Source of the DNA: a virus
Length of the DNA stretch: 64,000 nucleotides
Virus record (IMG/VR): IMGVR_UViG_3300044714_000074
Coordinates: 1 to 64,000 of that record
Direction: 5' to 3' (one strand)
Shown here: in pieces, positions 19,771 to 47,866 of the stretch
Layout: every line of letters begins with the position of its first letter
Numbering within the stretch: position 1 is the stretch's first letter
Translations under genes and position numbers: made by a program
Notes under the pieces: model-generated
Databases searched by the model: none
Told to the model about the DNA's origin: nothing
The model's input: only the letters and a program-made list of their open reading frames with translations

Positions 19771-19961
19771 CGCGCCTGCTCCTTTGCGGCGGCGTCCCGC
19801 CGCTCCTGCGCCAGTTGATTATATTCTGGCGCCGTCATGTTGTGATCTTTCAGCCAGTCGAACTGCGTCTGAGTCATCGGTTTCTGCCCGACGCCCTGCA
19901 TTCCGATTCGTTTCCATGGAAAATCATCACTCGTTGCCATTTTGGTTTCATCCCGCGTCAT
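19767..19961 (-). CDS. hypothetical protein
   Basis: ATGA-coupled. Confidence 0.5.
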   Translation of the reverse strand: MTRDETKMATSDDFPWKRIGMQGVGQKPMTQTQFDWLKDHNMTAPEYNQLAQERRDAAAKEQAR

Positions 19962-21280
19962 GGCAGAACCCGGATGTAAACCTGGACGTTGGCCGTCGCC
20001 GGGCTACCTTCCGCCTCCGTGATGCGAAAATACAGCGTCGGGTAGCCAGCGGCGGTTACTGAAATAGTCGAAACTCCGGAGATGTGCTGAAAATTGTTGG
20101 CGGTGGCGTCCGCCGTCGCGCTCACCGTAACGGACGTACTGTTGACAAGAGCCACGCCGGCGCCGCCCGCCGCCGTGAACACTGCGGCGCCGGCCGAGGT
20201 CAGGGAGGCGGACGCGCCGGTGATGTTGACCGACTCGACGTAGTAACGGCTGAAGCCGGATACCGAGGGTACCGGAAACGAAGTGTCGGCGAGGTTGTTG
20301 AAATTTACGCTGCTCAGATTGATCGAAAAGCCGAGGCCGCCGACGCCAGCTTGCGCGATGGGCGAGAACGAGATGCCGCCGGTCGATCCCGGCAATAGAG
20401 TGTTGGGATCACCCCCGGCAGTATCAACAACGCCGCTGCGGGAATCGATCAGGTATTTCGCGGCGGTGATGCCAGAGAAGCCGCTGAAGGTGATGCCAGC
20501 CAGGTCCATGAAAGAACCGTTGGTCATCGACACGACTTCGGTGAACGTCAGACTTGAGCCGCCCGTGATCGTAACGCCGGCATTGCTCGCTATCGAGCCG
20601 CCCTGAGTGCCATCAAACAAAGTAGTTGCGCTTGAGATGACGGATAGGTTGCCGTTGAAGATGATAAGCGCGCCAGCGTATGACGCACGAAGCATGGCCG
20701 TCCCGCTGCAATCCAGCGTCAGACCGGCCGCATAGACTATGGCGCTGTTGGCGACGATGCAGCCGTGAGTACCTTCAACTTGCAGGTTTTGGATTTGCCA
20801 GACTGAATTGACGTTGCGGGCTATGAAGGTCGGCTCAGTGGTGCAGTCGATAACGACATTAGATGGCGTCGAGGCATCGCCTGCGATGATCGCCTGCGGC
20901 GTCAGATTGTTGCCGAAGTTCGAGTTGCTGGCGAAATCAGGGAGAGCCTCGCACTCGTTATAAGTGCCATCGGCCAACTGGAACGTAAGAGTTTGATTGC
21001 CGAGATCGTAGAGCGGCGGGATCACGGTCAGCGCGTTCGCCAGCGTCTTGCATGGTGTCGTCGGCGACAGACAGCTGTTGCTGTCCGAGCCGGGCTGACA
21101 AGTAAACGCGCCACACGGAGACGTTGACGATGACGAATTGACATAAGCCGTCAACGACGCCGCGAGCAAAATTTTGGTCGGCTGTGGTGTTGGCTGTGGA
21201 CCGGGTCCAGGTCCGGGACCCTGCGCGAGGGCGGTTGAGCCGATAACCGCCGCGACGATCATTGCGAGGATAAATTTCAT
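19958..21280 (-). CDS. beta-helix tail fibre/spike-like protein with Sec signal peptide
   Basis: MKFILAMIVAAVIGSTALA-Q; YV...GSDSN...PCKTL..AL...YDLGNQTLTFQLADGTY pectin-lyase-like entry motif. Confidence 0.7.
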   Translation of the reverse strand: MKFILAMIVAAVIGSTALAQGPGPGPGPQPTPQPTKILLAASLTAYVNSSSSTSPCGAFTCQPGSDSNSCLSPTTPCKTLANALTVIPPLYDLGNQTLTFQLADGTYNECEALPDFASNSNFGNNLTPQAIIAGDASTPSNVVIDCTTEPTFIARNVNSVWQIQNLQVEGTHGCIVANSAIVYAAGLTLDCSGTAMLRASYAGALIIFNGNLSVISSATTLFDGTQGGSIASNAGVTITGGSSLTFTEVVSMTNGSFMDLAGITFSGFSGITAAKYLIDSRSGVVDTAGGDPNTLLPGSTGGISFSPIAQAGVGGLGFSINLSSVNFNNLADTSFPVPSVSGFSRYYVESVNITGASASLTSAGAAVFTAAGGAGVALVNSTSVTVSATADATANNFQHISGVSTISVTAAGYPTLYFRITEAEGSPATANVQVYIRVLP

Positions 21281-21282
21281 CT

Positions 21283-21612
21283 TTAATAGACCACGACGCT
21301 GAATTTGTGACCGCCAGTTGCGGCGTTTACGCTGGTATTCGTAGTTTGGCCAGGAATCAGTTGCCAGATGCCGCCGGGAGGAATCCGGAAGTTGGTGCCG
21401 TTCACCCCGCCGGCAACGGTTGGACTCGCCGCGGCACCGACAGGGTTGATGACGAGATCCTCGGCGGCGGGCAAGTTGCCCTGATCGGCCGCCGACACCG
21501 GGTTTTGGATGAAGCCGCCATTTGGACCAGCGGCAACCGCGATCACCGGCGTGCCGCCGACGGTGACGACGGAGGCGGCGCCAGCGACGGGAGTGACGGG
21601 ATTAGCCGCCAT
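21283..21612 (-). CDS. small virion protein, paralogue of the N-terminal domain of 23647-24723
   Basis: ANPV...VGG...GG.I.NP..A.DQG...PGG...QTT..SVNAAT.GHKFS present in both. Confidence 0.75.
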   Translation of the reverse strand: MAANPVTPVAGAASVVTVGGTPVIAVAAGPNGGFIQNPVSAADQGNLPAAEDLVINPVGAAASPTVAGGVNGTNFRIPPGGIWQLIPGQTTNTSVNAATGGHKFSVVVY

Positions 21613-21613
21613 G

Positions 21614-23008
21614 TCAGCCGACCATTCTTAGTTCGGCGGCGACGTTGTCGTTCGCCGGCTCCAGGGCGCTCATCTCTTCCCAGACATGCAAATTGCAAAC
21701 TGGGGTTCCGGCGGCGGTCGAGCACCACGTCGTCGTGTTGGTCGAGCTGTTCTTCACGCAGACCTCGTAGGTCTGTTGCGATGACGTGTTGGGCGCATCA
21801 TAGGCATCGGCCGTGACCGAGAACACGCCGACACCGGATAAACTCAATGGCAATGTGTTTCCCACTGCAGTGGTGCAGGCGCCGCTGCCGCCGGACGCTC
21901 GAAACACTTGCCACGTTCCGTCGCTGCCGGACAGGGCGGCCGTTCCGATCGCCTGGATGTGAATCAAGTTGGCCGCGCTAGTCGGCGTGATCGAAACGGC
22001 AGGAGCTCCACCGACGTAGGATGTCGTGGATGACTGCGTCTGCGACGATGTCGACACGACCAAATGCTGCACGATGTCGCCGGCCTTCTTCACTCCGGGA
22101 CCCATGAGTTGAACATATGTCGGACCGGTAGCCCACGTCCCCGCCGTCGACTCGGCGATGTCGATGTAGCCAATCTCGCGAACCGCCACGTTGGAGAGCG
22201 ACGATGTCGAGCAATAAGGCGTTTGCGCTGAGCTGCCGCCGGTCGTCCCGCTGGCGCTGCTTTGAAGCGCTTGCTCGTTGATCCCGACGATGCTCGGCCC
22301 CGACGAGTTCACGGAATTGTAGGCACACAGCGCGACCGTCCCGGCGTTGTTCGCCAGATAGACGCGGAGCCGGCAAAATATGCTGCTGCTCTGGCAACCC
22401 ATGGTGTGAGTCGACGCTATGGTGATGCTGAGCGCGCCGGTGATCGATTCGAAGACCGGATCGCCGTTCGCGATCGTCGCGTCGCGAAAGGCGACGAGGA
22501 TCGGGTTCGACGCGCTGGCGTTCGACCCGTTGTTGCCGACGACCGCGATGGTCAGAGCGTTCGTCGACACCGTGGCGTTGATCTGAAGGTTCGGCGGCAT
22601 GTTGAAGCCGAGCGACGAGTTTCCAACCGTCGACGCCGTGGTCGGCAGGTTGACCGGACCGAGCACCACGAAGCAGGAACTGTTGTAGGTCAGCAGGATC
22701 GGTTGACTGGTCACGATCTCGCCGCCGACAAGCGTCGTCGTCCCGGCGCCGTTCGGTTTGCAGAAGTGCGGCGGTGATCCGAAGCTATTGACGTTGAGCG
22801 TGGCATCGCCGGTGTTCGAGGCACCGGGATTGTAGATGATGATCGCGCTGACAAGATCGGCGTAGGACAGGACCTGCGGCGGCAGCGTGAGAGTCTGCGT
22901 GTTCGCTGAGCCGGCCCCGGTCCCGGCGTAGGTCGGAAACTGCGCGGCCGCCGGCGCCAGCATGGCTCCGAAGAAGAGTGCCGCAGCGACGAGGATTCTA
23001 GCGATCAT
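21614..23008 (-). CDS. tail fibre protein with Sec signal peptide
   Basis: True start MIARILVAAALFFGAMLAPAAA-Q (ATGA overlap); fibre-like modules NTGDATLNVN, NALTI...SNP..VAFR and VSITPTSAAN.I. Confidence 0.75.
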   Translation of the reverse strand: MIARILVAAALFFGAMLAPAAAQFPTYAGTGAGSANTQTLTLPPQVLSYADLVSAIIIYNPGASNTGDATLNVNSFGSPPHFCKPNGAGTTTLVGGEIVTSQPILLTYNSSCFVVLGPVNLPTTASTVGNSSLGFNMPPNLQINATVSTNALTIAVVGNNGSNASASNPILVAFRDATIANGDPVFESITGALSITIASTHTMGCQSSSIFCRLRVYLANNAGTVALCAYNSVNSSGPSIVGINEQALQSSASGTTGGSSAQTPYCSTSSLSNVAVREIGYIDIAESTAGTWATGPTYVQLMGPGVKKAGDIVQHLVVSTSSQTQSSTTSYVGGAPAVSITPTSAANLIHIQAIGTAALSGSDGTWQVFRASGGSGACTTAVGNTLPLSLSGVGVFSVTADAYDAPNTSSQQTYEVCVKNSSTNTTTWCSTAAGTPVCNLHVWEEMSALEPANDNVAAELRMVG

Positions 23009-23640
23009 GGCTTGTAGCTCCAGACGTTGCTGCCGTAGTAGCGGAAATAGGCGCACTGCCCGTTGACGTTCAGTTGGACGGACGCGGCATCGGCGATCGT
23101 CATGCCGGCCGGGGCGTTCACCGTCACCGGATAGGCGTTGAAGTTGTGGTTGAGATCCTCGATCGCGTAAAGCTGACCGGCTACCGCCGCCGAGGGAAGC
23201 GTCGTCGAAGATGTCGCCAGCGACGTGCTGCGGTTGAGCCCCACCGCACCGCCGGCGTCGGCAGTCGACATCGTGAAGGCGCCGCTCGCAGTGACGATGC
23301 GTGACGGTGACAGCGAACCGGTCTGCTGGAGCGCGGCCATCTGGCCAGCCGTGAGGAGGTTCGCGAAGAGATCGCCGGCGAGCCACGTCTGCGCGACGGT
23401 CCCTTCCTGGGCGCGCACCATCGTCGTGATGGTATCGCCGGAGATCGCTGTGCAGTAGACGATCTCCGTCAGCAGCCCGGTCGCGGCGTCGTTGAAGGTG
23501 GCGGCGAACTCCTGGCCGGCGCTCGGCGTCGGGAAGAGCGCCCCGGTGCCGGAGGCCAAGGTGACGGAGGTCGCCGCGGCCGAGATCGGGCCGGCGATCG
23601 TCGTTGACGCATCGTTGGCGAAAATGAAAGCGGTCACCAA
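23005..23640 (-). CDS. baseplate-proximal tail fibre/adaptor protein
   Basis: FANDASTTIA...GTGALFP...EIVYCT...RAQEGT...LTAG typical N-terminus. Confidence 0.75.
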   Translation of the reverse strand: MVTAFIFANDASTTIAGPISAAATSVTLASGTGALFPTPSAGQEFAATFNDAATGLLTEIVYCTAISGDTITTMVRAQEGTVAQTWLAGDLFANLLTAGQMAALQQTGSLSPSRIVTASGAFTMSTADAGGAVGLNRSTSLATSSTTLPSAAVAGQLYAIEDLNHNFNAYPVTVNAPAGMTIADAASVQLNVNGQCAYFRYYGSNVWSYKP

Positions 23641-23646
23641 GCCCTC

Positions 23647-24723
23647 CTAGACCGCCACGATGAACGTGGCTTGAAACGGCAAAGCAAGAACGCCCGAATC
23701 GATGCCCTCTTTGAGTACGCTTGCCAGGGCCGGCGGGTTCGGCCCGCTGTTGAATTGCGTGACCAGGTGGTTGAACGCCATCCTGTTGTAGCCGAATCGG
23801 TTGAACAATGCACCCCCGAGAATCGTCCTCGAGCCGCCGCCGAGCCGGATGGCGACGACACCGTCGCTGCCGAAACTGACGTCGACGATGTAGGTCTGGT
23901 CGATGTTCGGAGCCGTTCCCTGCGGACCGTAGAGGAATCGCATGATCCGGCGCTTCAGCCAGCGGACGTTGAAGACGTTCCCGTCGCCCTTGTAGAAATT
24001 CCAGGTGATGATCCGCTTGAAGACGTCGTCGGAGGTCGCCGTCACGTTCGACGGGCCCACGACCTTCGTCGCGTTGAAGGCGTGCGTATTGAAGGCGAAG
24101 GTGTTGTAGGGACCGATGTTTCGGTTCCGGCCCGAAGACAACGCCGGCCGAACGAACCCGTAAAGCCCCTCCGCCACCCAGTCCAGCAGCGAGCCGACGA
24201 TCTGCGCGCCGGTATAGACCGGCAGGCCGATCGTGGCGAACCACGTCACGTAGCTTTGCGCGAGCGCGTTCCAGGAAGCGACGAAGGCCTGGAGGTTGTC
24301 GTCGTCGGCGTACTGAACGTAGAGGTACGATGGGATCAGCGCGGTCAGCGTCGTCGGCCCCGCCGGCGGGAAGGTGCCGGGCTGCGGCGTCGGCGGGTAC
24401 GGCGTCTGAGGCTGAAGGACGTAGGCCGAGAACTTGTGTCCCGATGTCGCCGCGTTGACGCTGACGCTCGTCGTCTGGTTCGGGATCGTGAAGGCGCCGC
24501 CGGGCTGGATCGGGACCGACGTCGCGGTCTCGCCGACTGTCGCGTCCGCACCGGTGATGTCGACATAGAGTGGCTCGACGATCGCGATGCCCTGATCCTC
24601 GGCCATCGCCGGGTTGAGGATGGCGCCGCCAAGGACCGGGCCGAAGACAGCCGTGACGGCCTTCCCGCCGACAACAACCTCGCTGGCGACCGGGGCGTAG
24701 AGCGATACGGGGTTGGCGCCCAT
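23647..24723 (-). CDS. baseplate wedge protein (DUF2612-like)
   Basis: YLYVQYADDDNLQAF, LLDWVA.GLYG, SDDVFKRIITW. Confidence 0.75.
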   Translation of the reverse strand: MGANPVSLYAPVASEVVVGGKAVTAVFGPVLGGAILNPAMAEDQGIAIVEPLYVDITGADATVGETATSVPIQPGGAFTIPNQTTSVSVNAATSGHKFSAYVLQPQTPYPPTPQPGTFPPAGPTTLTALIPSYLYVQYADDDNLQAFVASWNALAQSYVTWFATIGLPVYTGAQIVGSLLDWVAEGLYGFVRPALSSGRNRNIGPYNTFAFNTHAFNATKVVGPSNVTATSDDVFKRIITWNFYKGDGNVFNVRWLKRRIMRFLYGPQGTAPNIDQTYIVDVSFGSDGVVAIRLGGGSRTILGGALFNRFGYNRMAFNHLVTQFNSGPNPPALASVLKEGIDSGVLALPFQATFIVAV

Positions 24724-24745
24724 CGTTAATGTTTACTTTCGTTTT

Positions 24746-25390
24746 TTAGATCGCAACACAAGAGAACTGTCCGGTCGGCGTGCGGGCCATAAAATATTCG
24801 TTGATTCGACTCTGCATTTGGCGAAGGCATCCACAGCTTCGAGTATTACCGCTCATCAGCGATTTAGCCGCGACCATGATCTCGTTGCCGCAATCGCAGT
24901 GAGCGAGCCAGCGTCTTTGACCACGTCCAGCATCGAATTTTCGCGGCAAAACATGCAAGACGGTCAAATGACCAAATTTTTGACCAGAAAGGTTTTTTCT
25001 CATCCGACAGCCACATGATCTGGCGCGACCACAGTTCAACAATTTTATTTGAATTGCCGATTCGGCACCGCAATCACATTTGCAGAGCATCCATCCGCGT
25101 CCAGCTGTGGCCATAACCGTAAGCTGACCAAACCGCCTGCCGATTAGATCGCGTCGCAATTTTCTGCATCCGCATGTTTTGAGACCGCCCTTGGTCAGAA
25201 CACTAAGCGGAACCTTTCTATAATTTCCGCAATCGCAACGGCACATCCAACCTCGATTAGCTTTCCCGGTAATGACCAGCATTCCAAAACGAGAACCAAC
25301 AGGCGATTGAATCTGTTCTGCTGGTGACGATATGGGTCCACCAACAAATTCGACTGGAAAGCCAAAACCCTTGCGCCGAATGCTTCTCAT
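24746..25390 (-). CDS. homing-endonuclease-associated zinc-binding repeat protein, no nuclease domain seen
   Basis: Three G.rFG.L.V...CDCG...[ST]CGC repeats; lower GC. Confidence 0.7.
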   Translation of the reverse strand: MRSIRRKGFGFPVEFVGGPISSPAEQIQSPVGSRFGMLVITGKANRGWMCRCDCGNYRKVPLSVLTKGGLKTCGCRKLRRDLIGRRFGQLTVMATAGRGWMLCKCDCGAESAIQIKLLNCGRARSCGCRMRKNLSGQKFGHLTVLHVLPRKFDAGRGQRRWLAHCDCGNEIMVAAKSLMSGNTRSCGCLRQMQSRINEYFMARTPTGQFSCVAI

Positions 25391-25402
25391 TGACTCGTCC
25401 TA

Positions 25403-26845
25403 TTAACCTTGTGTCACGGTGATGCCGGAGCCGAGAGGATCGGTATAGAAGCTAGATTCGATGTCGCCGAAAACGAGCAGCGTCCCGGCCTGTGGCGGCG
25501 TCACGATGCCGTTGATCGAGACCGTGAAGGTCAGCACCGATATTTGCGAGGGATCGAGCACGCTCGCCACGGCCGTCTGGAAGGTGCTGTTCATGACCCC
25601 GACGTTGATCGGTTGTCCGGCCACGATCGAGTCGATGTAAGCCGCGATCGCCGGCGCCGCGAGCTGCGCGACGGCCGCCTGCGAGACGAAGTTCGGCTGC
25701 GCCGTGTTCCACAGCACCGCGATCGTCACCGCCTGCTGCGGCGGGTCGACGAAAATCACCGAGTAGGTGTTCGGGTAGTCGAGAAGATTGACGGAAACAT
25801 TGCGGAGATTCGGTGTCAGGACGCCGCCGCCGCTGTAGGCCGGGTAGCCGCTGGTGTTGATTCCGATGCTGAAGGACTTCTCGGTGAGAACGGTGACAGT
25901 GAACGATTCGCCGTTGAGCGGAATCATCCCCTGGATTCCGGTCGCGACCGCGACCTGCCCGCTCGAGTAGTTGTGGTTCAGGTTCGTCGTGATCACGGCG
26001 TCCGCGGCCTGCGTGACATTCGTGATCGCAAGCGTCGAGCCGACGAGCGTCGAGACGTCAAAAAGCGCCTGGAAGATCGCGAGCGCGACCTCGTAGGGAT
26101 CGCCGCCGCCGCAGATGACCTCCCAGCCACCACCGGCCGCCGTCTGCTGGATGACCGAGATCAGCCTTTGCTGGACCCCGGGAACAGTGCCGAGGAGCGT
26201 CTTGAGGAAGGTCGGCATCCCCTGCGCCACCGCCTGTCCGGCTTGGAGGACGCGGGCACGGTACTGCTCCGAGGTCTCCGCCGGACCGCCGGAAATCCCG
26301 GCCGCCGGGTTCGAGCAGGTCAGCACTATGCCCGACGGAACCGAGGTCACCAGGTTTGTCACGGTGCCGGCCGGGACCGCCCAGGAGCCAGCGATCGTCG
26401 CTTGGCAGAACAGCGGCGCCGAGGTTCCACCGGAGGCCACGACGCCACCGTCCTGGACGACGTACTGGTAGGTGCCATCGGAGACCGTGAAGCCGACCGG
26501 GATCACGAAGCCGACTGTCCCGGTGAACTCGACGTAGACCGACGTGTTCGTCGGCACCGCCGGCGCCGAGCCGGGACCGATGTAAATCTGGCCGAGCTCG
26601 AGCAGCGTGAAATCGTTGGCACCGAACGGGGTTAGCGAGTTGATGGTCTCGACGCGCGCCGAGTCGATCTCGGCGAGGCCGCCGACCTGCGTGCTGGAAA
26701 CGTCCTCGATTAGCGATCCCGGAAGCGACGACGTGTAACCCGGCACGGTCGCCGCGACAGAGGCGAGGAGCGCGGCGAGCAGCGCGGCCGGCGGCGTCGG
26801 CTGCGCGCCGGCGGCCGTGACAACTACGGGAATGTCCGCGCTCAT
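25403..26845 (-). CDS. baseplate J-like protein
   Basis: PGYT..LPGSLIEDV, GGPAETSEQYRARV; position in the baseplate cluster. Confidence 0.88.
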   Translation of the reverse strand: MSADIPVVVTAAGAQPTPPAALLAALLASVAATVPGYTSSLPGSLIEDVSSTQVGGLAEIDSARVETINSLTPFGANDFTLLELGQIYIGPGSAPAVPTNTSVYVEFTGTVGFVIPVGFTVSDGTYQYVVQDGGVVASGGTSAPLFCQATIAGSWAVPAGTVTNLVTSVPSGIVLTCSNPAAGISGGPAETSEQYRARVLQAGQAVAQGMPTFLKTLLGTVPGVQQRLISVIQQTAAGGGWEVICGGGDPYEVALAIFQALFDVSTLVGSTLAITNVTQAADAVITTNLNHNYSSGQVAVATGIQGMIPLNGESFTVTVLTEKSFSIGINTSGYPAYSGGGVLTPNLRNVSVNLLDYPNTYSVIFVDPPQQAVTIAVLWNTAQPNFVSQAAVAQLAAPAIAAYIDSIVAGQPINVGVMNSTFQTAVASVLDPSQISVLTFTVSINGIVTPPQAGTLLVFGDIESSFYTDPLGSGITVTQG

Positions 26846-27219: not shown

Positions 27220-27226
27220 GGTATCG

Positions 27227-37659: not shown

Positions 37660-38240
37660 CGGTGCACTCCCTGTTTGCGTCCGATTCCAACATCGACCAT
37701 CAGCGCGGCCAAGCTGTCAACCGTTTCACCAGTCACGCGCGTCGGCCGAATGATTGCCCCGTCGATCGCCTGGACGTAGGACTCGACCTGCGCTTTCTGG
37801 CGGGCGTAGGCGGTCCCGCCGCACCATTCGACGGCGTCGCTGCTGACGTAGACGATGAACGGCGAGGATTCAGAAAACTCCCGTTCCTTCTTGATCCACT
37901 CTAGCATCGTCACTTGGTAGCGCCGCGCGATAGCGATTTGCGCGTCGACGTTGACGACCCACGATTCGGCGGTCCCCTCGCAACTCGCAAAGCCCGGCTT
38001 CGCGGCAACGAGATAAACGACCTCTGCCGGCGGCAGCACGTTGGGATCGTCCGCGCTGAGATCGAAGAACAGCTTGCCGTCCGGCATCATCCAGCCGGCG
38101 TGCGGTCTGATTCGCGGGACCAGCGGGCCGGGCGGCTCCCGGCGCGTCGTCGCCAGAAAGTCGATCCCGCGCTTCTCCAGCTCCGCGCAAAGCGCGGTGC
38201 CGATCAGCCCATTGCCGCCGATCACGAGATGGCCGCTCAC
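37647..38240 (-). CDS. RmlD-like NAD(P)-binding sugar-nucleotide reductase/epimerase (short)
   Basis: HLVIGGNGLIG, VN, YVSSDAV, YARQK (YxxxK), IIRP. Confidence 0.82.
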   Translation of the reverse strand: MSGHLVIGGNGLIGTALCAELEKRGIDFLATTRREPPGPLVPRIRPHAGWMMPDGKLFFDLSADDPNVLPPAEVVYLVAAKPGFASCEGTAESWVVNVDAQIAIARRYQVTMLEWIKKEREFSESSPFIVYVSSDAVEWCGGTAYARQKAQVESYVQAIDGAIIRPTRVTGETVDSLAALMVDVGIGRKQGVHRWKP

Positions 38241-40323: not shown

Positions 40324-40338
40324 TGCGGCGACTCCCTG

Positions 40339-40800
40339 TCAATCTATCCAAGCGTGAAACGATGCCTGATACAAGCCCGTATCGATGAAGCTAGGCCGTC
40401 TCGGACCTTTTCTCAACTTGAGCCTGTGGTTGACGCCTTTTAGCGCCGCCTGGGTCGGCACGCCGGGATAGCCAAGTGCTTCCATCTCCTTGTTCGATAG
40501 AAACATCTTGAAGCGGTCCTCGATCTCCGAAGTCGCGGTGCCAAAAGGATCGTTCGACGGCGGCGCGCCGAGCAGGACGTTCTCCAGTGCGCCTTCCAGG
40601 GAGTTCTCCAAGTAGCCGGCGATGTCGGCCTGCCGCTCCTGAAAGAAGATTTCCATGATGTGGTAGCGGTTCTCAAGAAATTCAGCCACGTCGCCAGTCG
40701 TCACTGTGCTGGCCGAAGTCTTGCGGCGACGACGCCCCTTCCGCGGTGGCGGCTGGGCTTGGTTGTAAGGCAAATCTGCGACACCTAAATGGAGGATCAC
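40339..40800 (-). CDS. neck/tail completion protein
   Basis: LHLGV.D.PY, TTGDVA..LE..Y, GVPT.AAL.G, RPSFIDTGLY. Confidence 0.75.
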   Translation of the reverse strand: MILHLGVADLPYNQAQPPPRKGRRRRKTSASTVTTGDVAEFLENRYHIMEIFFQERQADIAGYLENSLEGALENVLLGAPPSNDPFGTATSEIEDRFKMFLSNKEMEALGYPGVPTQAALKGVNHRLKLRKGPRRPSFIDTGLYQASFHAWID

Positions 40801-41594
40801 TGCACTGTCTCTGCATATCGCCAATGATATTTATAGGCGGAACGCCAATGGCCGCGTTTTCGACATACCGCAACAATAGCAGATGGTGAGGCTTTGGACT
40901 CGCCCTTCGATTTAAGCCAATCGACTGCAGCACGAACGGTCAAAAATAATTCTCCTGTCTCTTCGCAAATCACCTTTCTAGCCATTGGATGATTCCCACC
41001 ATGATAAGTGGGCGGACGATTTCCATTCTCAAGAGAGATACGACGTTTCTTTTCTCTATATTCCTTTTTTGAGGCTGTCATGATTATTGACGCATTGCGA
41101 CGCGCAATCATCTCTAGGTTTTTATTTAGTCTGCGAGCGACCTCTTGTTTTTTAGGAAGCACTCGTTGAGCGCTTTCAACCATTGCAGCTGTATGTTTTG
41201 CTTTATATTCCGGGTCTTTATATCTCAACAACATAGTTTCGCTTCGCCGCTGCTTTACTTCCGGTAATTTATTTGTCGCCCTAAGTGTTGCGGCGCGTTT
41301 TTGAATAAGTTCTGGCACTAATCGAATGCCATCTCCACCATTCGTCAAATTTACTAGCCTCGCCCCGAGAGCCCTGAACTGAGCGATCAGCTTCATTTCA
41401 TGATCAAAAGCGTTTTTCTCTTTGGCCCAATACTCAACAATTTCGACGATGAAACCTTTTTCCGCTGCGCGTTCACTCCACAATTTGCTTCGCCGGTTGG
41501 TATCCCAAGCTCTTTTGCGCGTTCCCTTCCCTACATAGAAAACGCCAGCGATTCTGCTGACACCAGATTGCCTATGAATGTAAGTGTAAAACAT
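40797..41594 (-). mobile_element. free-standing GIY-YIG homing endonuclease with NUMOD-like C-terminus
   Basis: FYTYIH...FYVGKG...RA...E...N.TNGGDG; KVICEETGE.F; strongly AT-rich. Confidence 0.85.
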
Positions 41595-41677
41595 CGGGCC
41601 ATTATAGCTCGATTCCCTCAAAAACACCTAAGTGAAGCGTCAGCATCGTCACGCCGCCTTGTTGAGCCACGCCGGGG

Positions 41678-44600
41678 TCATCGGTAGGTCGCCAAGATTC
41701 CGCTCGGGGTGACGTTCATAATCTGGCTGGAAAACGGAATGTCGAATATGGCACTCGCACACTTCGTGACAAGGGCCGGTGCGATGGTCGGTACGATGAG
41801 ATCGTTGGCGCCAGCTAGAATCGTAGGCGTCGCGTTGTATGTGGCGCAATAGACCAAGGCGCTTCCCTTAACATAAGGGACGGTGCTCACGCCGATTTTC
41901 TGGACGGCGTTGCTCGCCAATCCGGTGAATAAGTAGACGTAAGCACCGCGCGAGATGCCGGCACCGCTTCCCCAATTGATAGTGACCGTGACAGTTCCCG
42001 AATTGGCCGGGATCACGGCGCTGAAGATGAACTCGTTGGTACTGTTGCTTACGTCCGGGACGCTGATCGTGATGTTGCCAGCCCAGCCGGGGCCGGTTCC
42101 GCCGCTAAGCACGACGGTGCTGATCCCCGGCGAGTTCTGTGCCCCGCAGGCAAAGACGGCTAACCCTGCGGCATTGTTTCCGAACGCGGCGGTGAAGGTC
42201 TGCGCGGCTGGCGTCCCGTTGTAGAAATTTGATGCGATAAACGAATAGGTACCAGTCGCCGCTAGGGTGGGATCAACATATGGACCGAGCACGTTCTGTT
42301 CGATGATGCCCTGCCATTTGGCAGTGCTCTCATCACCGGGAAAATACCGCAGGCCGATCCATGCCAACGAACCGAGTTCAACAAATTGCGCTGGGTACGG
42401 CGCGTTGCCGCCGATCTGGCCGCCGACTCCCCCGCCGCAGGCTTCATAAAGCGCCGCATAGCATGCCTCTACGGTATAGGAACCAGATTGTCCGGTGTCC
42501 CAGGCCCAGTTCATCATATAGCTGAGAAATTGGCTGTTGCCTCCAAGCCCAGAACCGAGAGAGCCCCACAAATTGCTGTCGAGGGCGCCCCCAAGACTTG
42601 AGCCGCCCTCATAGAAGCCGAGTCGAATAGGCCCGGTGCCATAGATCACCCCGAAGGTGTCGGAGATCAAAGCCTGCTGCTGGATGAACGACGGCACGCT
42701 GTTGGCGAACGTTGGCGAGAGGCCGCTGCCAGACGCCGTAGTGGCGTAGCCGTTATCGGCGGCGCCAATCATGATAGACTCGGAGATTTGCTCCGCGAAA
42801 TACGTATAGATCGTAGGGTATTGGCTTGGGCTTGACGTGTGATTCGCGGCGCCGTTGTCCATCAGATCAAACAGCAGACCGTTGGCCGCATAGCCGGAAT
42901 ACTGGCCCGTGTTCGAATAGGTCAGACCTGTCGTGTTGATCGCGCCGCTTCCGCTGTTGCCGCCGTAGTTGGTGAACGAGAAGCTTGATGTCGTCGCCGC
43001 CGAGAGGACCACGTCCTGATTGTTGAGCAGCGAGCCGATTGTCCCCGCGCCGGTGTTGCTAAAGAAAAGCCGGACGATTTGTGCGGCGGTCAAGCCGGCG
43101 GCTGTTGCGGTCGTCGCTTGGCTTGTCTGATAGACGCCGGCGCCGCCGGCTGTGCCGGAAATCTGGCCGACGATGAAGGTGCCAGCAGGCACGCCGCTGC
43201 CGGTCAATAGAGCGCCCGGCGCGATGGTGCCGGTAACGCTGGTGATGGCAAGCTGGTTGCCGCTTGCCGTGCCGGTGAAAGTCGCTAAGCTGAACGGATT
43301 GCCGCCAGTACCGCACTGGCAGGTTGTCGTGGTCCCAACGCTTACGCTGGAAAATGAGCCGTTGTTGGCGCCGATCCCGGTGCTGCTCTCTCCATTGGCG
43401 AAATAAACCGCCATGTCCATTTCGTCGAACAAATTGCTTAAATTTAACCCGGCCGGAACGCCGCTGACACCGGGATTGTTGATAGCATACAGGGCGCCGG
43501 CAAACCCGGTCGTCGATACCGCTATGTTGGTTGCTTGAGTGCCAAGAGCACCGCGCCAACGCGACCGCTGCGTCGGTCCATAGACCGCGTTGACGATAGC
43601 CCAAAGCTGCGCAGTTCGGTAGCCGGCAAAGGCATAGGCTTGGCCCGAGGTCCCGGTGCCGGGATAAATCTGCGCCTCGCAGTAGTAAAAATTACCCTGC
43701 GCGAAGTTCCAATTTTCGTTGCCATATTCGAACTTGACCCAAAGATTGGAGTTTAAGTTCGATTGAAAAAATTGCGCGATAGCCTGCATCCCGGCATTCG
43801 TCATCGCGTTCGGGATGTTGTAGTGGACGTTGCAGCCGGTCAGGTTGGCGAGCTGACAGATGATGCTCGGATGCACACCGCTTTTTGGTCCATAGGGGCC
43901 GTTATACGAGCCGACGATGGCCAACGAAGTCATCGCCTCAGACGCGACGGTCTGAGAAATGTTGACCTGGTAGGTTCCGTTCGACCCAGTCGAGCCCGTG
44001 AGCTGCTGGACGACTACGGTTCCGGCCGCGAGCGCTCCGGTCGTATCGGATAACGCGACGTTCGGCCCGACGTTGCCCACATCGGCCGCAACGAGCCCGC
44101 TCACTGTCAACGTCGTACCGGAGATTGCACCCGTGAAGTAGGCTTGTCCTCGACCGTATTGAGCAATTGAGTTGTAGTTTGCGTCGGCAAACTGCGAGAT
44201 GTCACTGATCCCGCCGCCATCAATGATGTCGTTCCAATCCATGAAACGCAGGACGCCGAACGGTTGAACGTCGGCAACCCAGTCAGGATTAAAGTATTGC
44301 CCGGCCGCGACGTTGGCCGCATACTTGGACTGGAAGATTTTTATGTTATGCGGCGGGTCGCTTTTGTTGGTAACCGCGAACTGGACGCCGAGATTGTTCA
44401 CCCCGGTCGTACCTAGCGTTATTGTGCCGCTGTTGGCGCCGAACGACGACGAGCCGCCGCTGCCGGGGTTCCCGGTCAATGTCGCCGTCGCGGTGCCGCT
44501 CCATTCGACGGTGAACGTCGCGCCATACCACCACGGATTGCCGCTTAACGAAATGTATTGATAGAACGGTGTCGGCGTGAAAAAGATGCGACTTATAGAG

Positions 44601-44929
44601 GTCACATCGGACGGGCACGGGTTGTTCAATTCCCCGGTGCTCGGGTTGAAGTAGGCGGTCCCGCCGCCGGGCGATGCGGTGCCCACCGCGTTCCACGCCG
44701 CTTGACTATTTACCGTCCCGTTGAGTGTGCTGACGACGGTAGTCGTAGAGGCCGTCAGCCACCAGTTTAGAAATGGCACCTCGCCGGTATAGTAGGAAAC
44801 GCCGCCGACATTCATCAGCATGCCGCCGCTGGTCTGTGGCGGGATTCCGTGAACAGGCCATGCTGCGGCTGGCGACGTTGCGACCAGCGTCGCGGCCAGC
44901 GTGGCGGCCAGGAACTTGCGGCGCGACAT
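41678..44929 (-). CDS. large Tat-signal glycoside-hydrolase-like protein with virion-type beta modules
   Basis: MSRRKFLAATLAATLVATSPAAA-W; FNPDW...LRFMDW, YNIP, FEYGNENWN, FYEGG; an alternative GTG start near 45013 is possible. Confidence 0.7.
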   Translation of the reverse strand: MSRRKFLAATLAATLVATSPAAAWPVHGIPPQTSGGMLMNVGGVSYYTGEVPFLNWWLTASTTTVVSTLNGTVNSQAAWNAVGTASPGGGTAYFNPSTGELNNPCPSDVTSISRIFFTPTPFYQYISLSGNPWWYGATFTVEWSGTATATLTGNPGSGGSSSFGANSGTITLGTTGVNNLGVQFAVTNKSDPPHNIKIFQSKYAANVAAGQYFNPDWVADVQPFGVLRFMDWNDIIDGGGISDISQFADANYNSIAQYGRGQAYFTGAISGTTLTVSGLVAADVGNVGPNVALSDTTGALAAGTVVVQQLTGSTGSNGTYQVNISQTVASEAMTSLAIVGSYNGPYGPKSGVHPSIICQLANLTGCNVHYNIPNAMTNAGMQAIAQFFQSNLNSNLWVKFEYGNENWNFAQGNFYYCEAQIYPGTGTSGQAYAFAGYRTAQLWAIVNAVYGPTQRSRWRGALGTQATNIAVSTTGFAGALYAINNPGVSGVPAGLNLSNLFDEMDMAVYFANGESSTGIGANNGSFSSVSVGTTTTCQCGTGGNPFSLATFTGTASGNQLAITSVTGTIAPGALLTGSGVPAGTFIVGQISGTAGGAGVYQTSQATTATAAGLTAAQIVRLFFSNTGAGTIGSLLNNQDVVLSAATTSSFSFTNYGGNSGSGAINTTGLTYSNTGQYSGYAANGLLFDLMDNGAANHTSSPSQYPTIYTYFAEQISESIMIGAADNGYATTASGSGLSPTFANSVPSFIQQQALISDTFGVIYGTGPIRLGFYEGGSSLGGALDSNLWGSLGSGLGGNSQFLSYMMNWAWDTGQSGSYTVEACYAALYEACGGGVGGQIGGNAPYPAQFVELGSLAWIGLRYFPGDESTAKWQGIIEQNVLGPYVDPTLAATGTYSFIASNFYNGTPAAQTFTAAFGNNAAGLAVFACGAQNSPGISTVVLSGGTGPGWAGNITISVPDVSNSTNEFIFSAVIPANSGTVTVTINWGSGAGISRGAYVYLFTGLASNAVQKIGVSTVPYVKGSALVYCATYNATPTILAGANDLIVPTIAPALVTKCASAIFDIPFSSQIMNVTPSGILATYR

Positions 44930-45014
44930 TCCGCGCCGCTCCCGGCGCGACGTGCTTACCGCGAGGAAGGTTGATACGTAGAGCGAGGCGATAAATTTTT
45001 TGATTTCGAACACA

Positions 45015-46232
45015 TCAGCCGCCGATGATGTGGCCGCCGCCACCGACGACTGGTGGATTGATTGTAAAGCCGCTGTTGCCCCCGTTATCTGACGAGTTAG
45101 TCGTCGTCAGCGTACCGGTCCCGGTTATCTTGAAGCCTATAAAGTTGCACCATGTGCAGGACGAATTGGAACCGATTGAAAGGGTTGCCACCCCGGTGCT
45201 ATTCGCGATCATGCCCAACTGCGCGCCGCTGGTGCCCGTACCCGTGATTGCTCCCGTGACCGTCGTAGTGGCGTTGTTTGGAAACTCAATGAGGTTCGCC
45301 CCGGTCAATGTCATGGACGCGAAGGTCGCGCCGCCACCGACGAAACTGACGCTATTGTTGGCTGTCGAGATCGGACTAGCGTTTCCAGTTATTGTTATCG
45401 CGCCGAATATTGATCCGGCTGTTGTGAAAGTGCGACCGCTCGTCGGCGTAGCCCCAGGAGTAACGATGAGCGACGCCGACGAGCAGCTTATTGTCCCGCT
45501 GACATTCCAGATCGTGCTGCCATTGGTATCGAGCGTCCATGTACCGGAACCGCAATTTATACTGCCAGCACCAGCCACCGAGCCGATGGTCACATTGGAG
45601 TTATTCGTTGTCGCATCAACCGTTCCCGCCGTGAGCGTCAGCACATAGCTTAAGGTCGAAGTCGAATTAATACCGTCCTCTAGCTCAAAGAAGCCGCCCG
45701 ACCCATTGAATGTGACGTTCTCAAGCGTGTTGTGAGACGGGTTGGTCCAGATTGTTGTCGGACTGACGGACGTGCCGGTCGTTGACGTAAATGCGATAGT
45801 GCGATTGGACCCTTCTGACAAAGTCAGACTGGCGTTCAAATAGAAATAATTTCCCGCCGTCGTTATGACGGTGCCGGTCGCCGTAATGGATAGCGTCCCA
45901 GCAAAGGCACCCTCGCCGTCACCAGACAGGTTCGTGTCGAGACTGTTGATCGTGATTGCGGCGGCAACGGTGGATGTGCCGGCGGTGAAGCCATCGAGCA
46001 CGATGTCGTCGTAGGGTGAGCTCGTTGCTGGAGTACAGGCGCACGATAAGCCGCCCGGCGTGGCCGACCACGCTGTAATCGTCCCCCAGTTCGTTCCCCC
46101 GATCCAGTAACAGGTATGGGCGCCCCCATGAACCGCCGTGCCGGTGCAGTTCGCCTCGGCCGGCGTCGGCACCAGCGCCGCACCAATCCAGACGCAGAGC
46201 GCGACGAGCGCGAGGCGGAGGAAGGTTTTCAT
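45015..46232 (-). CDS. secreted beta-helix/adhesin-like protein
   Basis: MKTFLRLALVALCVWIGAALVPTPAEA-N; YWIGG.NW...WS..GG entry motif; Thr/Gly/Ser-rich. Confidence 0.7.
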   Translation of the reverse strand: MKTFLRLALVALCVWIGAALVPTPAEANCTGTAVHGGAHTCYWIGGTNWGTITAWSATPGGLSCACTPATSSPYDDIVLDGFTAGTSTVAAAITINSLDTNLSGDGEGAFAGTLSITATGTVITTAGNYFYLNASLTLSEGSNRTIAFTSTTGTSVSPTTIWTNPSHNTLENVTFNGSGGFFELEDGINSTSTLSYVLTLTAGTVDATTNNSNVTIGSVAGAGSINCGSGTWTLDTNGSTIWNVSGTISCSSASLIVTPGATPTSGRTFTTAGSIFGAITITGNASPISTANNSVSFVGGGATFASMTLTGANLIEFPNNATTTVTGAITGTGTSGAQLGMIANSTGVATLSIGSNSSCTWCNFIGFKITGTGTLTTTNSSDNGGNSGFTINPPVVGGGGHIIGG

Positions 46233-46399
46233 TTTGTCACCGTACAGGTCAGCCCGATCCGCCAGCCTTCCAGGCAAAGCTGCTCCGGCGTCATAGGCTG
46301 CGAGAAGATCAGCATCTTTGCGGGTGGCTGATAGTTATGTACGACGCTCAGAAGCATCACGCACCAAAATGCGACAATGGTGGCCAACACAAACTTCAT
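46229..46399 (-). CDS. small signal-peptide/TM protein (56 aa)
   Basis: MKFVLATIVAFWCVMLLSVV...; stop overlaps the next ATG; translated by hand. Confidence 0.5.
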   Translation of the reverse strand: MKFVLATIVAFWCVMLLSVVHNYQPPAKMLIFSQPMTPEQLCLEGWRIGLTCTVTK

Positions 46400-46402
46400 G
46401 GC

Positions 46403-47866
46403 TCAGTTGTACCCGATGGTCAGCGACATCGCCGACGCCGTGGCGTTCGTCGTGTCGTTCGTCGCGTAGCCGCTGGTGACGCAGATGCTGATGCCGGTCG
46501 AGAACGGGATGCCGAACGGCAGCGGGATGTTGATGCCGCCGACCGAGGTCGAGGCCGGTATCTGGATTTGAGCGATCAGGTTCGTTGCACTACCGCAGCC
46601 GTTGAAGCCCGACGCGGCGTTGTAGAACCGCAGATAGTTCACCGTGGCAGAATTGTTCTCGGCGAGAATCCAATAGACCTGGCCGGCGCCGTTCTTGACG
46701 TTGGTGTGGTTGTCGCTCGCCGCCGGCTGCAAGAAGTACGTCGTGTAGCCGCCCGAGGTCACCAGCGAGGGAACGACGCCGTTGCCGTTGGCGACGGTCG
46801 GGGTCGTGTTCAGCGACATCGGCTGCGGCGTGCCGCTGGCGACGCCTTGGACACTTAGAACTTGCGTCGATGGTGTTCCCGCCGTGCCCGGCGCCGAACC
46901 CGCGATGGTGGTCGTGTCCTGCCCGACCGCGACGCGCAAGGTGCCAGTGCCAACAGCACCGGCTCCCACCGACGCCGTCGCCCCACCGATCTGAGTCAAG
47001 TTGACCGACTGGTTGGCGACCAGGGCACCGATGACATTGGTGCCGGCCGGGATGCTGGATTGAACGGCGGTTATCAGCGCTGAAAGCTGGTTGTAGAGTC
47101 CCTTGAGCAGCGCAACAACCGACCACGCATTGGTGCTGTTGTTCGCGGCGCTATCGGTCGTCGAGCCCTCTGCAGTATCGGCACCGTTGGCGATGGTGAC
47201 GGCACCGCCTCCACCGCCGCCACTGCTTCCTGTGCCGCCAGCGAACTGCGCGCAGCTTGTCATCTGCGTCAGGTTGACTTTCCCCGTCCCGGTCGCGGCG
47301 AAGACCGCCAGCGTGGTTGCCGGGCCGACGTTCAAAATGCAGAGGCCGCCCGTCGGCAACACCGGATTCGATGCCGACGCCGTGATGTTCGACGCGCCAA
47401 GCGCATAGTTGACGTTCACCGTGGTGCTCTGATCAGGGACGATCAGAAGCGCCGGGAAACTCTTCGTACTGGCAGGTAGCGCAACGCTGGCGGAAGTTGC
47501 GCTGCTCGACGTCGCCGATGCGCCGAGATTGCTGACCGACTGCGCGGTGGCGAGGCGCGGAGCGAAGCAGAGCGCCGCGGCGATCAACCCGGCGATTGCG
47601 ATCTTGCCGAGATGCTTCATGTAGGTCCCGCCTTTCACCTTGGCGAGATGCTCGTCGACGAGCGCCTCGGCCTTCTCCGCATCATCGCACGATTCCCCGC
47701 CGATCACAGCCGCGATCTCGAGGAGCGGGAGACCGCCATGCGCCGCGAGGAATTGCAACGTCCGGCCGGTCGTCTTCTCGATCGCCGCGCGGTGCGGCTC
47801 GACCAGATTCCACGGAACGCTGGTCCGCTTCTCCGATCCGGTCACCGGGAACGTCAGTCCGATCAT
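46403..47866 (-). CDS. beta-rich virion-like protein with signal peptide at internal Met (47620), fused in frame to an 82-aa upstream module
   Basis: ATGA-coupled start at 47866; MKHLGKIAIAGLIAAALCFAPRLATA-Q at 47620; C-terminal VKNGAG...GIPFSTGI domain. Confidence 0.65.
   Translation of the reverse strand: MIGLTFPVTGSEKRTSVPWNLVEPHRAAIEKTTGRTLQFLAAHGGLPLLEIAAVIGGESCDDAEKAEALVDEHLAKVKGGTYMKHLGKIAIAGLIAAALCFAPRLATAQSVSNLGASATSSSATSASVALPASTKSFPALLIVPDQSTTVNVNYALGASNITASASNPVLPTGGLCILNVGPATTLAVFAATGTGKVNLTQMTSCAQFAGGTGSSGGGGGGAVTIANGADTAEGSTTDSAANNSTNAWSVVALLKGLYNQLSALITAVQSSIPAGTNVIGALVANQSVNLTQIGGATASVGAGAVGTGTLRVAVGQDTTTIAGSAPGTAGTPSTQVLSVQGVASGTPQPMSLNTTPTVANGNGVVPSLVTSGGYTTYFLQPAASDNHTNVKNGAGQVYWILAENNSATVNYLRFYNAASGFNGCGSATNLIAQIQIPASTSVGGINIPLPFGIPFSTGISICVTSGYATNDTTNATASAMSLTIGYN

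What the first reader, a model, noticed from the sequence alone, without database searches (positions are those of the whole stretch)
19958..47866. Tail-fibre/adhesin-like late proteins carry export signals: candidate periplasmic maturation of virion parts
Seen in sequence: five large late-operon proteins have textbook export signals. These are 19958-21280 (MKFILAMIVAAVIGSTALA-Q), 21614-23008 (MIARILVAAALFFGAMLAPAAA-Q), 45015-46232 (MKTFLRLALVALCVWIGAALVPTPAEA-N), 46403-47620 (MKHLGKIAIAGLIAAALCFAPRLATA-Q, internal Met) and 41678-44929 (Tat, SRRKFL). The first two sit exactly in the tail-fibre slot after the baseplate genes and contain phage-fibre-like modules. The Sec-type ones have clustered Cys pairs (CGAFTC, CLSPTTPC, CQSSSIFC, WCSTAAGTPVC, CAC, CTWC). 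Established: tailed virions assemble in the cytoplasm and their fibres normally lack signal peptides, while disulfides form in the periplasm. Inference: these proteins are exported, folded with disulfides and attached to virions at lysis, or they act at the cell surface (receptor masking or biofilm remodelling). The signal-less 23005-23640 and 21283-21612 proteins could be the cytoplasmic docking adaptors.
Basis: partly seen in the sequence, partly recalled or inferred. Interest (0 to 1): 0.88.

Follow-up and report, generated by a model that had tools for sequence, protein, structure and literature searches.

The report
Phage tail-fibre proteins carrying export signals
A soil phage, like many of its relatives, puts secretion signals on proteins built like tail fibres, so these host-recognition parts probably fold outside the cytoplasm, which is not how tailed phages are thought to be built.

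Summary
All five ORFs begin with Sec- or Tat-type leaders at the stated coordinates, and the quoted Cys motifs are present.

**Conservation of the leaders.** They are kept as a feature, not as sequence:
- 56 of 59 fetched homologues of 21614-23008.
- 19 of 19 viral-contig homologues of 46403-47620.
- 13 of 30 homologues of 41678-44929 carry a twin-arginine motif.

**Cysteines.** In relatives of 21614-23008, a conserved Cys pair occurs only in leader-bearing forms. Leaderless forms are ordinary tail fibres without those Cys.

**What the proteins are.**
- 23005-23640 is only a fibre anchor.
- 21614-23008 is built from tail-fibre modules and ends in a TNF-like tip.
- 41678-44929 is a clan GH-A glycosidase.
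- 45015-46232 is a beta-helix.

**Two groups.** The two fibre-slot genes are core to the clade. The other three sit in a 7-kb accessory island that is absent from four complete relatives.

**What is not shown.** Export is well supported but not demonstrated. Attachment to virions is untested, and I give it about 0.4. An extra C-terminal "EPANDN" tail is seen mostly on leader-bearing proteins and remains unexplained.

The parts
19958..21280 (-). A: 440-aa ORF in the slot after the fibre genes. It has a leader (21224-21280), a QGPGPGPGPQPTPQP linker and a Cys-rich start of a repetitive domain. I read that domain as a beta-helix from the sequence pattern only; no fold was made.
   Evidence: Translation. 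No Pfam or PHROG hit. Five weak homologues; the 3 with complete N-termini all carry leaders, and leaderless P0126 lacks the Cys motif. The same slot in L003, L004 and L105 holds 1229-, 1253- and 869-aa ORFs with a leader plus a Pro/Gly linker.
21283..21612 (-). B: 109-aa signal-less protein, a paralogue of the first ~100 residues of E.
   Evidence: Alignment A4 with conserved NP..DQG..E..SVNA..SGHK. Present after C in 6 of the 80 viral loci and in L105.
21614..23008 (-). C: 464-aa protein. It has a leader (22943-23008), three beta-sandwich domains and a 17-aa C-terminal tail ALEPANDNVAAELRMVG (21617-21667). Its ATG overlaps the stop of D (ATGA).
   Evidence: Model pLDDT 82. Residues 307-449 are TNF/C1q-like (PLTL lectin Z 13.7). 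Residues 25-123 resemble Pa193 gp47 tail fibre (Z 9.5, 26% identity; sequence E 0.062).
23005..23640 (-). D: 211-aa tail-fibre anchor plus a small C-terminal domain. No leader and no distal part.
   Evidence: PHROG tail-fibre families. tblastn finds 112 phage records, all matching within residues 1-136, and none covers 80% of D. Profile against PDB: 8jov_1 putative tail fiber residues 1-123, E 1.2e-14; residues 140-206 match tailspike chains at E ~0.01.
23647..24723 (-). E: 358-aa protein between the wedge and D. It has a B-like N-domain and a phrog_8212 domain.
   Evidence: Conserved next to D in relatives.
40797..41627 (-). Homing-endonuclease-like gene at the edge of the accessory island.
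   Evidence: phrog_314, 2.7e-14. The island's GC is 0.54-0.59, against about 0.60-0.66 around it.
41678..44929 (-). Tat-signal protein of 1083 aa. The leader is at 44861-44929 and contains SRRKFL. It is a clan GH-A (beta/alpha)8 glycoside hydrolase with inserted and C-terminal beta domains.
   Evidence: 1074 homologues. Invariant R228, N404-E405 and Y773-E774. Model pLDDT 75.5. VIA hits GH51, GH39, GH79 and GH5, Z 20.7 to 15.
45015..46232 (-). S3: 405-aa protein with a leader (46152-46232) and a right-handed beta-helix.
   Evidence: The Atlas's own model matches viral clusters and PATR / filamentous-haemagglutinin-type passengers, TM 0.5-0.7.
46229..46399 (-). 56-aa ORF with a hydrophobic N-terminus, lying between S4 and S3.
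   Evidence: Not studied further.
46403..47620 (-). S4: 405-aa protein with a leader (47543-47620), Gly-rich and repeat regions, and a conserved ~120-aa C-terminal domain with two invariant Cys.
   Evidence: 397 homologues. 28 of 32 fetched homologues were flagged with N-terminal leaders. 19 of 19 viral-contig members carry leaders by eye. Invariant C342 and C380.
47621..47866 (-). 82 codons in frame upstream of S4. They start at an ATG that overlaps the stop of 47863-48381. Either they form an N-terminal cytoplasmic extension of S4 or they are translated as a separate piece.
   Evidence: GC3 is 0.84 in frame, against 0.68 and 0.47 in the other frames. No Pfam hit and no match in any fetched locus.

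Best explanation
The five leaders are working export signals: four Sec/signal-peptidase-I type and one Tat. The mature proteins therefore fold outside the cytoplasm. The Sec substrates fold with disulfides. The Tat substrate is exported already folded.

**The two fibre-slot genes.** A (19958-21280) and C (21614-23008) are the distal, specificity-determining parts of a split or branched tail-fibre system.
- D (23005-23640) is the baseplate-anchored adaptor, made in the cytoplasm.
- C and A are exported and mature in the periplasm.
- They meet the finished particles only when the holin opens the inner membrane at lysis.

**The three island genes.** The GH-A glycosidase 41678-44929, the beta-helix 45015-46232 and the knobbed fibre 46403-47620 are strain-specific accessory exported proteins. 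They bind or cut envelope or matrix polysaccharide.

**Basis of each step.**
- Shown by computation: the presence and conservation of the leaders, the folds, the modular kinship with tail fibres, and the island status.
- Inferred: cleavage, export, disulfide formation, attachment to virions, and substrates.
For: **Leaders conserved in character, not in sequence**
- 56 of 59 C homologues. Two of the three misses are mis-called starts.
- 28 of 32 fetched S4 homologues, and 19 of 19 viral-contig members by eye.
- Tat family: 13 of 30 have an RR motif and most of the others have Sec-like leaders.
- The 3 A homologues with complete N-termini all carry leaders.

**Cys pair tracks the leader**
- Among 75 distinct viral ORFs with the C-like domain, the pair at C205/C212 is found in 11 of 21 leader-positive and 2 of 54 leader-negative ORFs (p=4e-6).
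- Those two negatives (L031 and L037) have hydrophobic leaders by eye.
- Leaderless P0056/L007 is a classical fibre with two C-like domains and none of the four Cys.

**Conserved gene order**
- The wedge-E-D-C order and the ATGA overlap of D and C are kept in all 8 related loci that have a D homologue.

**D is only an anchor**
- D is more conserved (47-74% identity) than C (36-51%).
- The A slot changes completely between relatives: 440, 869, 1229 and 1253 aa.

**Fibre hallmarks**
- C's N-domain matches Pa193 gp47 tail fibre, and its tip is TNF-like, as in phage receptor-binding heads.
- The A-slot protein of L105 has a Peptidase_S74 fibre-chaperone domain (28 bits, cut-off 22).

**Shuffled N-modules**
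- Leader-bearing N-modules (QWQTPNHS..., QGAVLQGG..PGH) are combined with C-like or A-like distal domains, as in receptor-binding proteins.
Against: - No signal-peptide predictor was available. My leader rule is ad hoc.
- Nothing shows cleavage, export or presence in virions.
- No tailed phage is known to me that adds periplasmic parts to its particle (recalled). Five literature searches listed none.
- In prophage-like L106, a leader-bearing C-like gene sits between a J-like gene and an ordinary leaderless fibre. That is a classic place for non-structural cargo.
- Three of the five genes are dispensable.
- The phage also carries other envelope cargo: a porin-like ORF and a Lipase_3 ORF. Exported non-virion proteins are therefore its habit.
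- The leader-Cys counts are not phylogenetically independent.
Confidence: 0.4

Rival explanations
1. The proteins are exported but never join the virion. They work at the infected cell's envelope or after release. Possible roles are binding or cutting surface polysaccharide to mask or destroy receptors (protecting progeny and excluding rivals), or loosening capsule or biofilm for release. On this view D alone is the particle's fibre.
For: - Exported phage proteins encoded beside tail-fibre genes exist: T5 Llp, phi80/N15 Cor and lambda Lom (recalled, not tested here).
- 5% (3261 of 64,678) of prophage CAZymes carry signal peptides (PMC13507307, passages read).
- The Tat protein is a GH-A enzyme.
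- The island is dispensable.
- The L106 arrangement resembles cargo.
- Other envelope cargo is present in this genome.
Against: - The virion would be left with only a 211-aa fibre that is more conserved than the baseplate wedge. It would have no variable tip.
- C consists of tail-fibre modules along its whole length.
- A relative's A-slot protein has the S74 fibre chaperone.
- The start of C is coupled to the stop of D in every relative.
- Known masking proteins are small lipoproteins, and no lipobox is present here.
Confidence: 0.35
2. The hydrophobic N-termini are not cleaved export signals. Instead they are membrane anchors or assembly elements. They might tether fibres at the inner membrane until assembly, or insert into the host membrane at infection.
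For: - For 46403-47620 the hydrophobic segment may be internal, 82 residues into a longer protein. That would make it a signal anchor.
- P0128 also has a long n-region.
Against: - Small residues at positions -3 and -1, followed by an invariant Q-F, are kept in the C family.
- Leader length and sequence vary freely, while the mature start is conserved.
- Cys pairs track the leader.
- Even an anchor with a positive N-side would place the body of the protein in the periplasm.
Confidence: 0.1
3. The finding is an annotation artefact. The true starts lie downstream of the leaders, or the ORFs are not expressed.
For: - Shine-Dalgarno matches are weak for A and S3.
- No RNA data are available.
Against: - Conserved coding sequence runs right up to the cleavage site.
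- There is no conserved downstream Met.
- Start-stop overlaps or 1-2 nt gaps link D, C, B and A.
- GC3 is coding-like.
Confidence: 0.03

Closest known systems
Branched or adaptor-based receptor-binding protein systems of phages (G7C, CBA120, K1-5/SP6 type; recalled from the literature)
   Same: - A short anchor protein with an extra domain (D) is followed by separately encoded distal fibres or spikes that lack their own anchor.
- The distal genes are swapped between relatives.
   Different: - In those systems every part is cytoplasmic.
- Here the distal parts carry Sec-type leaders and leader-linked Cys pairs.
- Docking between D and C is not shown.
Exported phage proteins encoded next to tail-fibre genes: T5 Llp, phi80/N15 Cor, lambda Lom (recalled)
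   Same: - They are phage-encoded and carry signals.
- They are envelope-directed.
- Their genes sit beside or inside the tail-fibre region.
   Different: - Those are small lipoproteins or an outer-membrane barrel, and they are not fibre-like.
- Here the proteins are 405-1253 aa, multi-domain and fibre/spike-like, with no lipobox.
Secreted or surface trimeric TNF/C1q-like adhesins and lectins: Photorhabdus PLTL, Chlamydia Pgp3, Bdellovibrio Bd2734 fibre tip, BclA
   Same: The tip domain of C (residues 307-449) has the same fold, with Z 13.7, 12.8, 12.1 and 9.7.
   Different: - Sequence identity is only 7-14%.
- Those are cellular proteins.
- Trimer state and sugar binding of C were not tested.
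Signal-bearing phage lysis proteins (SAR and signal-peptide endolysins such as P1 Lyz and fOg44 Lys44; recalled) and prophage CAZymes with signal peptides (PMC13507307)
   Same: - Late phage proteins that use the host Sec or Tat route.
- The Tat-signal GH-A enzyme fits this class.
   Different: - Those are enzymes of lysis or carbon use, not fibre modules in the receptor-binding slot.
Clan GH-A glycoside hydrolases (GH51, GH39, GH79, GH5)
   Same: - The barrel fold matches, Z 20.7-15.
- The NE and E catalytic-type positions are invariant.
   Different: - No Pfam family was hit.
- Large inserted beta domains are present.
- The GH family and the substrate are unknown.

Membership tests
Sec-type (signal peptidase I) signal peptide | Positively charged n-region, uncharged hydrophobic h-region of about 10-15 residues, and small residues at -3 and -1. 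| tested here: met
   Met for A, C, S3 and S4 by my own rule and by eye. This is not a trained predictor.
Sec-type (signal peptidase I) signal peptide | Kept in homologues as a feature while its sequence drifts. | tested here: met
   C family 56 of 59. S4 family 28 of 32, plus 19 of 19 viral-contig members by eye. A family: all 3 with complete N-termini. S3 homologues were not obtained.
Sec-type (signal peptidase I) signal peptide | Actually cleaved and exported. | not testable with these tools
   Needs N-terminal sequencing, PhoA fusions or proteomics.
Tat signal peptide | S/T-R-R-x-F-L-K motif before a mildly hydrophobic h-region and an AxA site. | tested here: met
   The leader reads SRRKFLA...SPAAA|W. 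13 of 30 fetched homologues carry an RR motif. The consensus itself is recalled.
Clan GH-A glycoside hydrolase (41678-44929) | (beta/alpha)8 barrel. | tested here: met
   VIA Z 20.7 (3ug3, rmsd 3.4, 306 aligned) and 20.4 (1pz2). All top 50 rows are glycosidase barrels or close kin. Whole-model Foldseek was uninformative.
Clan GH-A glycoside hydrolase (41678-44929) | Acid/base Glu in an N-E motif and a nucleophile Glu. | tested here: inconclusive
   N404-E405 and Y773-E774 are invariant in 24 sequences. I did not check that they superpose on the catalytic residues of the hits.
Virion tail fibre / receptor-binding protein (C and A) | Encoded in the baseplate/fibre module and conserved there. | tested here: met
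Virion tail fibre / receptor-binding protein (C and A) | Homology to proteins seen in solved or annotated virion fibres. | tested here: met
   For C:
- Pa193 gp47 tail fibre, Z 9.5, 26% identity over 93 residues; sequence E 0.062.
- Its central domain is shared with about 50 leaderless fibre-like ORFs.

For A:
- Only a weak tblastn hit to an annotated tail fibre (25.7% identity, E 3e-5).
- The Peptidase_S74 domain is in a relative's A-slot protein, not in A itself.
Virion tail fibre / receptor-binding protein (C and A) | N-terminal anchor to the baseplate. | tested here: not met
   C and A start with leaders. The anchor homology lies in D.
Virion tail fibre / receptor-binding protein (C and A) | Physically present in the particle. 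| not testable with these tools
   Needs virion proteomics or cryo-EM.
Receptor-masking lipoproteins (Cor/Llp type) | Lipobox with Cys at +1, and small size. | tested here: not met
   None of the five has a lipobox, and their sizes are 405-1083 aa. A lipobox ORF does exist elsewhere, at 16806-16979.

The most novel reading that the evidence does not exclude
A widespread group of soil tailed phages makes its distal receptor-binding fibres and spikes as secreted proteins.
- The fibres and spikes are exported by Sec, stabilised by disulfides in the periplasm, and added to cytoplasm-built particles only when the holin breaches the membrane.
- A portable C-terminal tail (..EPANDN..MVG/KAA) serves as the docking or sorting signal.
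- This would be two-compartment assembly of a tailed virion.
Probability: 0.35. Interest if true: 0.9.

Novelty: new variant of a known kind. Interest (0 to 1): 0.72.

Why it matters
**If the fibre-slot proteins are virion parts.** Tailed-phage assembly is then not purely cytoplasmic in these phages. Host secretion and disulfide machinery would become host-range and burst-quality factors. Leaders would have to be trimmed when such fibres are expressed for engineering or host prediction.

**If they are not virion parts.** They would define a large, unrecognised class of fibre-like exported phage proteins encoded inside structural modules. Annotation pipelines would wrongly call these receptor-binding proteins.

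**Either way:**
- The link between leader and cysteines gives a simple sequence test for which phage fibre-like proteins fold outside the cytoplasm.
- The C-terminal tail is a new candidate signal that can be tested by deletion.

Tried and rejected
**Complex prediction.** Complex prediction with D, B and mature C as the partner gave no verdict (score 0.00; controls not run). This says nothing either way.

**Searches that found little or nothing**
- Megablast of the region against phages: no match.
- tblastn of C, A and the Tat protein against phages: one weak hit, one weak hit and none.
- PDB sequence searches with the Tat protein, S3, S4 and A: nothing meaningful.
- Pfam on the ten focal proteins: no family above cut-off.
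- Single-sequence scans of viral contigs for C and S3: none.
- Atlas search for the Tat protein: no usable hit and no model.
- Whole-model Foldseek of the Tat protein: uninformative.
- The Burkholderia phage JC1 fibre region gave no help.

**Scans at chance level.** Promoter and terminator scans were at chance level.

**Sequencing runs.** Two soil-metagenome DNA holders were listed, one of which may be the source. No RNA holder was listed.

**Lifestyle.** No integrase or repressor family turned up among the 50 ORFs scanned with PHROGs. About 27 small ORFs were not scanned, so the lifestyle stays open.

**Rejected lead.** P0047, an apparent C-B fusion, reads as a 1-nt frame change of the normal C end. 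I judged this by eye, so it is not evidence that C and B act as one protein.

**Literature**
- Five full-text searches listed no paper on tail fibres with Sec signals.
- Passages of PMC12210884, PMC3556154 and PMC6102473 were read and were irrelevant.
- Supplements are closed. Figure S5 and the data tables of PMC13507307 might list comparable signal-bearing enzymes.

Full report
**Setting.** The window is the first 64 kb of a single 73,015-bp virus record. The only sequencing runs found to hold it are soil metagenomes.
- PHROG hits identify a contractile-tailed phage with its late genes on the minus strand: portal, terminase, sheath 33978-35615, baseplate hub 28343-29368 and baseplate wedge 25403-26845.
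- No cultured phage is close. The sheath has 14 tblastn hits, all under 60% identity.
- Close relatives are metagenomic contigs of 68-75 kb, three of them with terminal repeats.
- Relatives also occur in assemblies labelled Rhizobiales, Alphaproteobacteria and Xanthobacteraceae.

**Observation.**
- My own crude leader rule (not SignalP) flags 9 of 77 ORFs in the genome. These are the five, a lipoprotein, a porin-like ORF, a 56-aa membrane ORF and one probable false positive.
- The mature chains of the four Sec-type proteins hold 8, 10, 8 and 4 Cys. That is 30 in 1620 residues, against 42 in 6741 for 23 other structural proteins (odds ratio 3.0, p=1.4e-5).
- The start of C overlaps the stop of D (ATGA). 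C-B and B-A are 1 and 2 nt apart.
- The S4 leader lies 82 codons inside a longer frame whose ATG overlaps the upstream stop. Those codons look coding (GC3 0.84) but match nothing.

**The leaders are family features.**
- C has 185 homologues. Of the 59 fetched, 56 are flagged. Two misses are over-long gene calls that still contain ...AAAQFADQ, and one (P0056) is truly leaderless.
- Leader sequence and length drift, while A22, Q23 and F24 at the junction are nearly or fully invariant.
- S4 has 397 homologues. Of the 32 fetched, 28 are flagged, and all 19 viral-contig members carry leaders by eye.
- The Tat protein has 1074 homologues. Of the 30 fetched, 13 have an RR motif and most others have a Sec-like leader.
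- A has five weak homologues. The three with complete N-termini all have leaders.
- I obtained no homologues for S3.

**Cysteines track the leader.** A profile scan of viral contigs gave 108 relatives of C's central domain. Eighty loci were kept, holding 75 distinct ORFs.
- About 50 of these are ordinary fibres with classical N-termini and no leader.
- The pair aligned to C205/C212 is present in 11 of 21 leader-positive and 2 of 54 leader-negative ORFs (p=4e-6).
- The two exceptions, L031 and L037, have an obvious hydrophobic leader that my strict rule missed.
- P0056/L007 is a leaderless fibre with two C-like domains and has none of the four conserved Cys.
- The leaderless A homologue P0126 likewise lacks A's CGAFTC...C motif.
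- These counts include related sequences and are not independent events. Even so, at least three N-terminal architectures are involved.

**What the proteins are.**
- *D.* Residues 1-122 match a solved tail fibre (8jov_1, E 1.2e-14). All 112 phage records hit by tblastn match only within D's first 136 residues. Residues 140-206 weakly match an N-proximal tailspike domain (E about 0.01). D is therefore an anchor plus a small domain with no distal part.
- *C.* The model (pLDDT 82) has an N-terminal helix and three beta-sandwich domains.
  - Residues 25-123 match Pa193 gp47 tail fibre (Z 9.5, rmsd 2.7, 93 aligned, 26% identity; sequence E 0.062).
  - Residues 307-449 are TNF/C1q-like: PLTL lectin Z 13.7, Pgp3 12.8, Bdellovibrio Bd2734 12.1.
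- *S3.* It is a beta-helix according to the Atlas's own model.
- *Tat protein.* It is a clan GH-A barrel (GH51 Z 20.7 and 20.4, then GH39, GH79 and GH5), with invariant R228, N404-E405 and Y773-E774.
- *A.* It was not folded. Calling it a beta-helix is my reading of its sequence.

**Core versus cargo.**
- The order wedge-E-D-C is kept in all eight related loci that contain a D homologue. B follows C in seven of them.
- The slot after B holds leader-bearing ORFs of 440, 869, 1229 and 1253 aa. All share a leader followed by a Pro/Gly-rich linker. The 869-aa ORF has a Peptidase_S74 fibre-chaperone domain.
- By contrast, the Tat protein, S3 and S4 are absent from four complete relatives.
- In G001 the same place holds a 96-aa ORF. 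The window instead has a 7-kb insert of lower GC with a homing-endonuclease-like gene.

**Reading.** Real export is the best-supported part; I put it near 0.85. For C and A, I favour a split fibre system.
- D is more conserved than the wedge and has no variable tip.
- C and the A slot vary in the way receptor-binding proteins do.
- Leader-bearing N-modules are shuffled with different distal domains.
- Joining could happen once the holin opens the membrane. This is inference only.

The rival is exported proteins that never join the particle. It has real precedents and fits the island genes and the L106 arrangement.

**An added puzzle.** Leaderless relatives of C end at ...EIMG or ...EIMV.
- A further tail of about 17 residues (ALEPANDN...MVG) is found in 8 of 24 leader-bearing and 0 of 51 leaderless ORFs by a strict pattern (p=4e-5).
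- A similar tail ends unrelated leader-bearing proteins: the L003 A-slot ORF, a 795-aa ORF in L036, and P0275, a homologue of the Tat protein.
- An exact-motif scan found 44 stretches, and 14 have the motif 14-18 residues before a stop. Of those 14:
  - eight complete large ORFs all have leaders;
  - four are cut by contig ends;
  - two are leaderless, a 74-aa ORF and a methyltransferase-like ORF.
- I know of no described signal like it.

Noticed in passing
window 21617-21667; also L003:11650-15339, L036:16018-18405 and P0275: A portable C-terminal tail (..L-E/D-P-A-N-D-N.. ending in MVG, KAA or QAA) is seen mostly on leader-bearing phage proteins of unrelated folds. Leaderless homologues stop just before it. 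Two leaderless exceptions turned up in the motif scan.
   Followed up: partly
window 17321-18118, 16806-16979 and 15786-16622: Three ORFs lie beside the endolysin (18826-19770, Rv2525c-like):
- a 265-aa ORF with a clear signal peptide that looks porin-like, a reading from the sequence only since Pfam found nothing; homologues sit near the lysis genes in L003 and L004;
- a 57-aa lipobox ORF;
- a Lipase_3 ORF.
   Followed up: partly
window 36059-38240, 53876-54769 and 56603-57502: Sugar-nucleotide and modifying enzymes sit inside the structural module: an epimerase (37647-38240), a methyltransferase (36991-37659) and three paralogous ORFs that start ..(I/V)P(A/V)WG... They suggest glycan synthesis or modification by the phage.
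   Followed up: no
window 24746-25390 and 40797-41627: Two mobile-endonuclease-like genes interrupt the late region. One is an HNH-like Cys-repeat ORF between the wedge and E. The other is a homing-endonuclease-like ORF at the edge of the island.
   Followed up: no
L030:6020-11044, L044:4192-10987, L089:6116-10405, L096:6227-12869: Other viral contigs with GC 0.46-0.64 carry runs of two to four leader-bearing ORFs between their capsid and tail genes. Some of these ORFs have the C-like or S4-like domains.
   Followed up: partly
L106 (contig of 4.04 Mb, alphaproteobacterial assembly): A leader-bearing protein with the C-like domain lies between a J-like 1228-aa gene and a normal leaderless fibre. 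The setting appears to be an integrated siphovirus-type prophage.
   Followed up: partly
window 21283-21612 and 24415-24723: B is a stand-alone copy of the N-terminal domain of E. It shares the conserved NP..DQG..E..SVNA..SGHK motif. Its role is unknown.
   Followed up: partly
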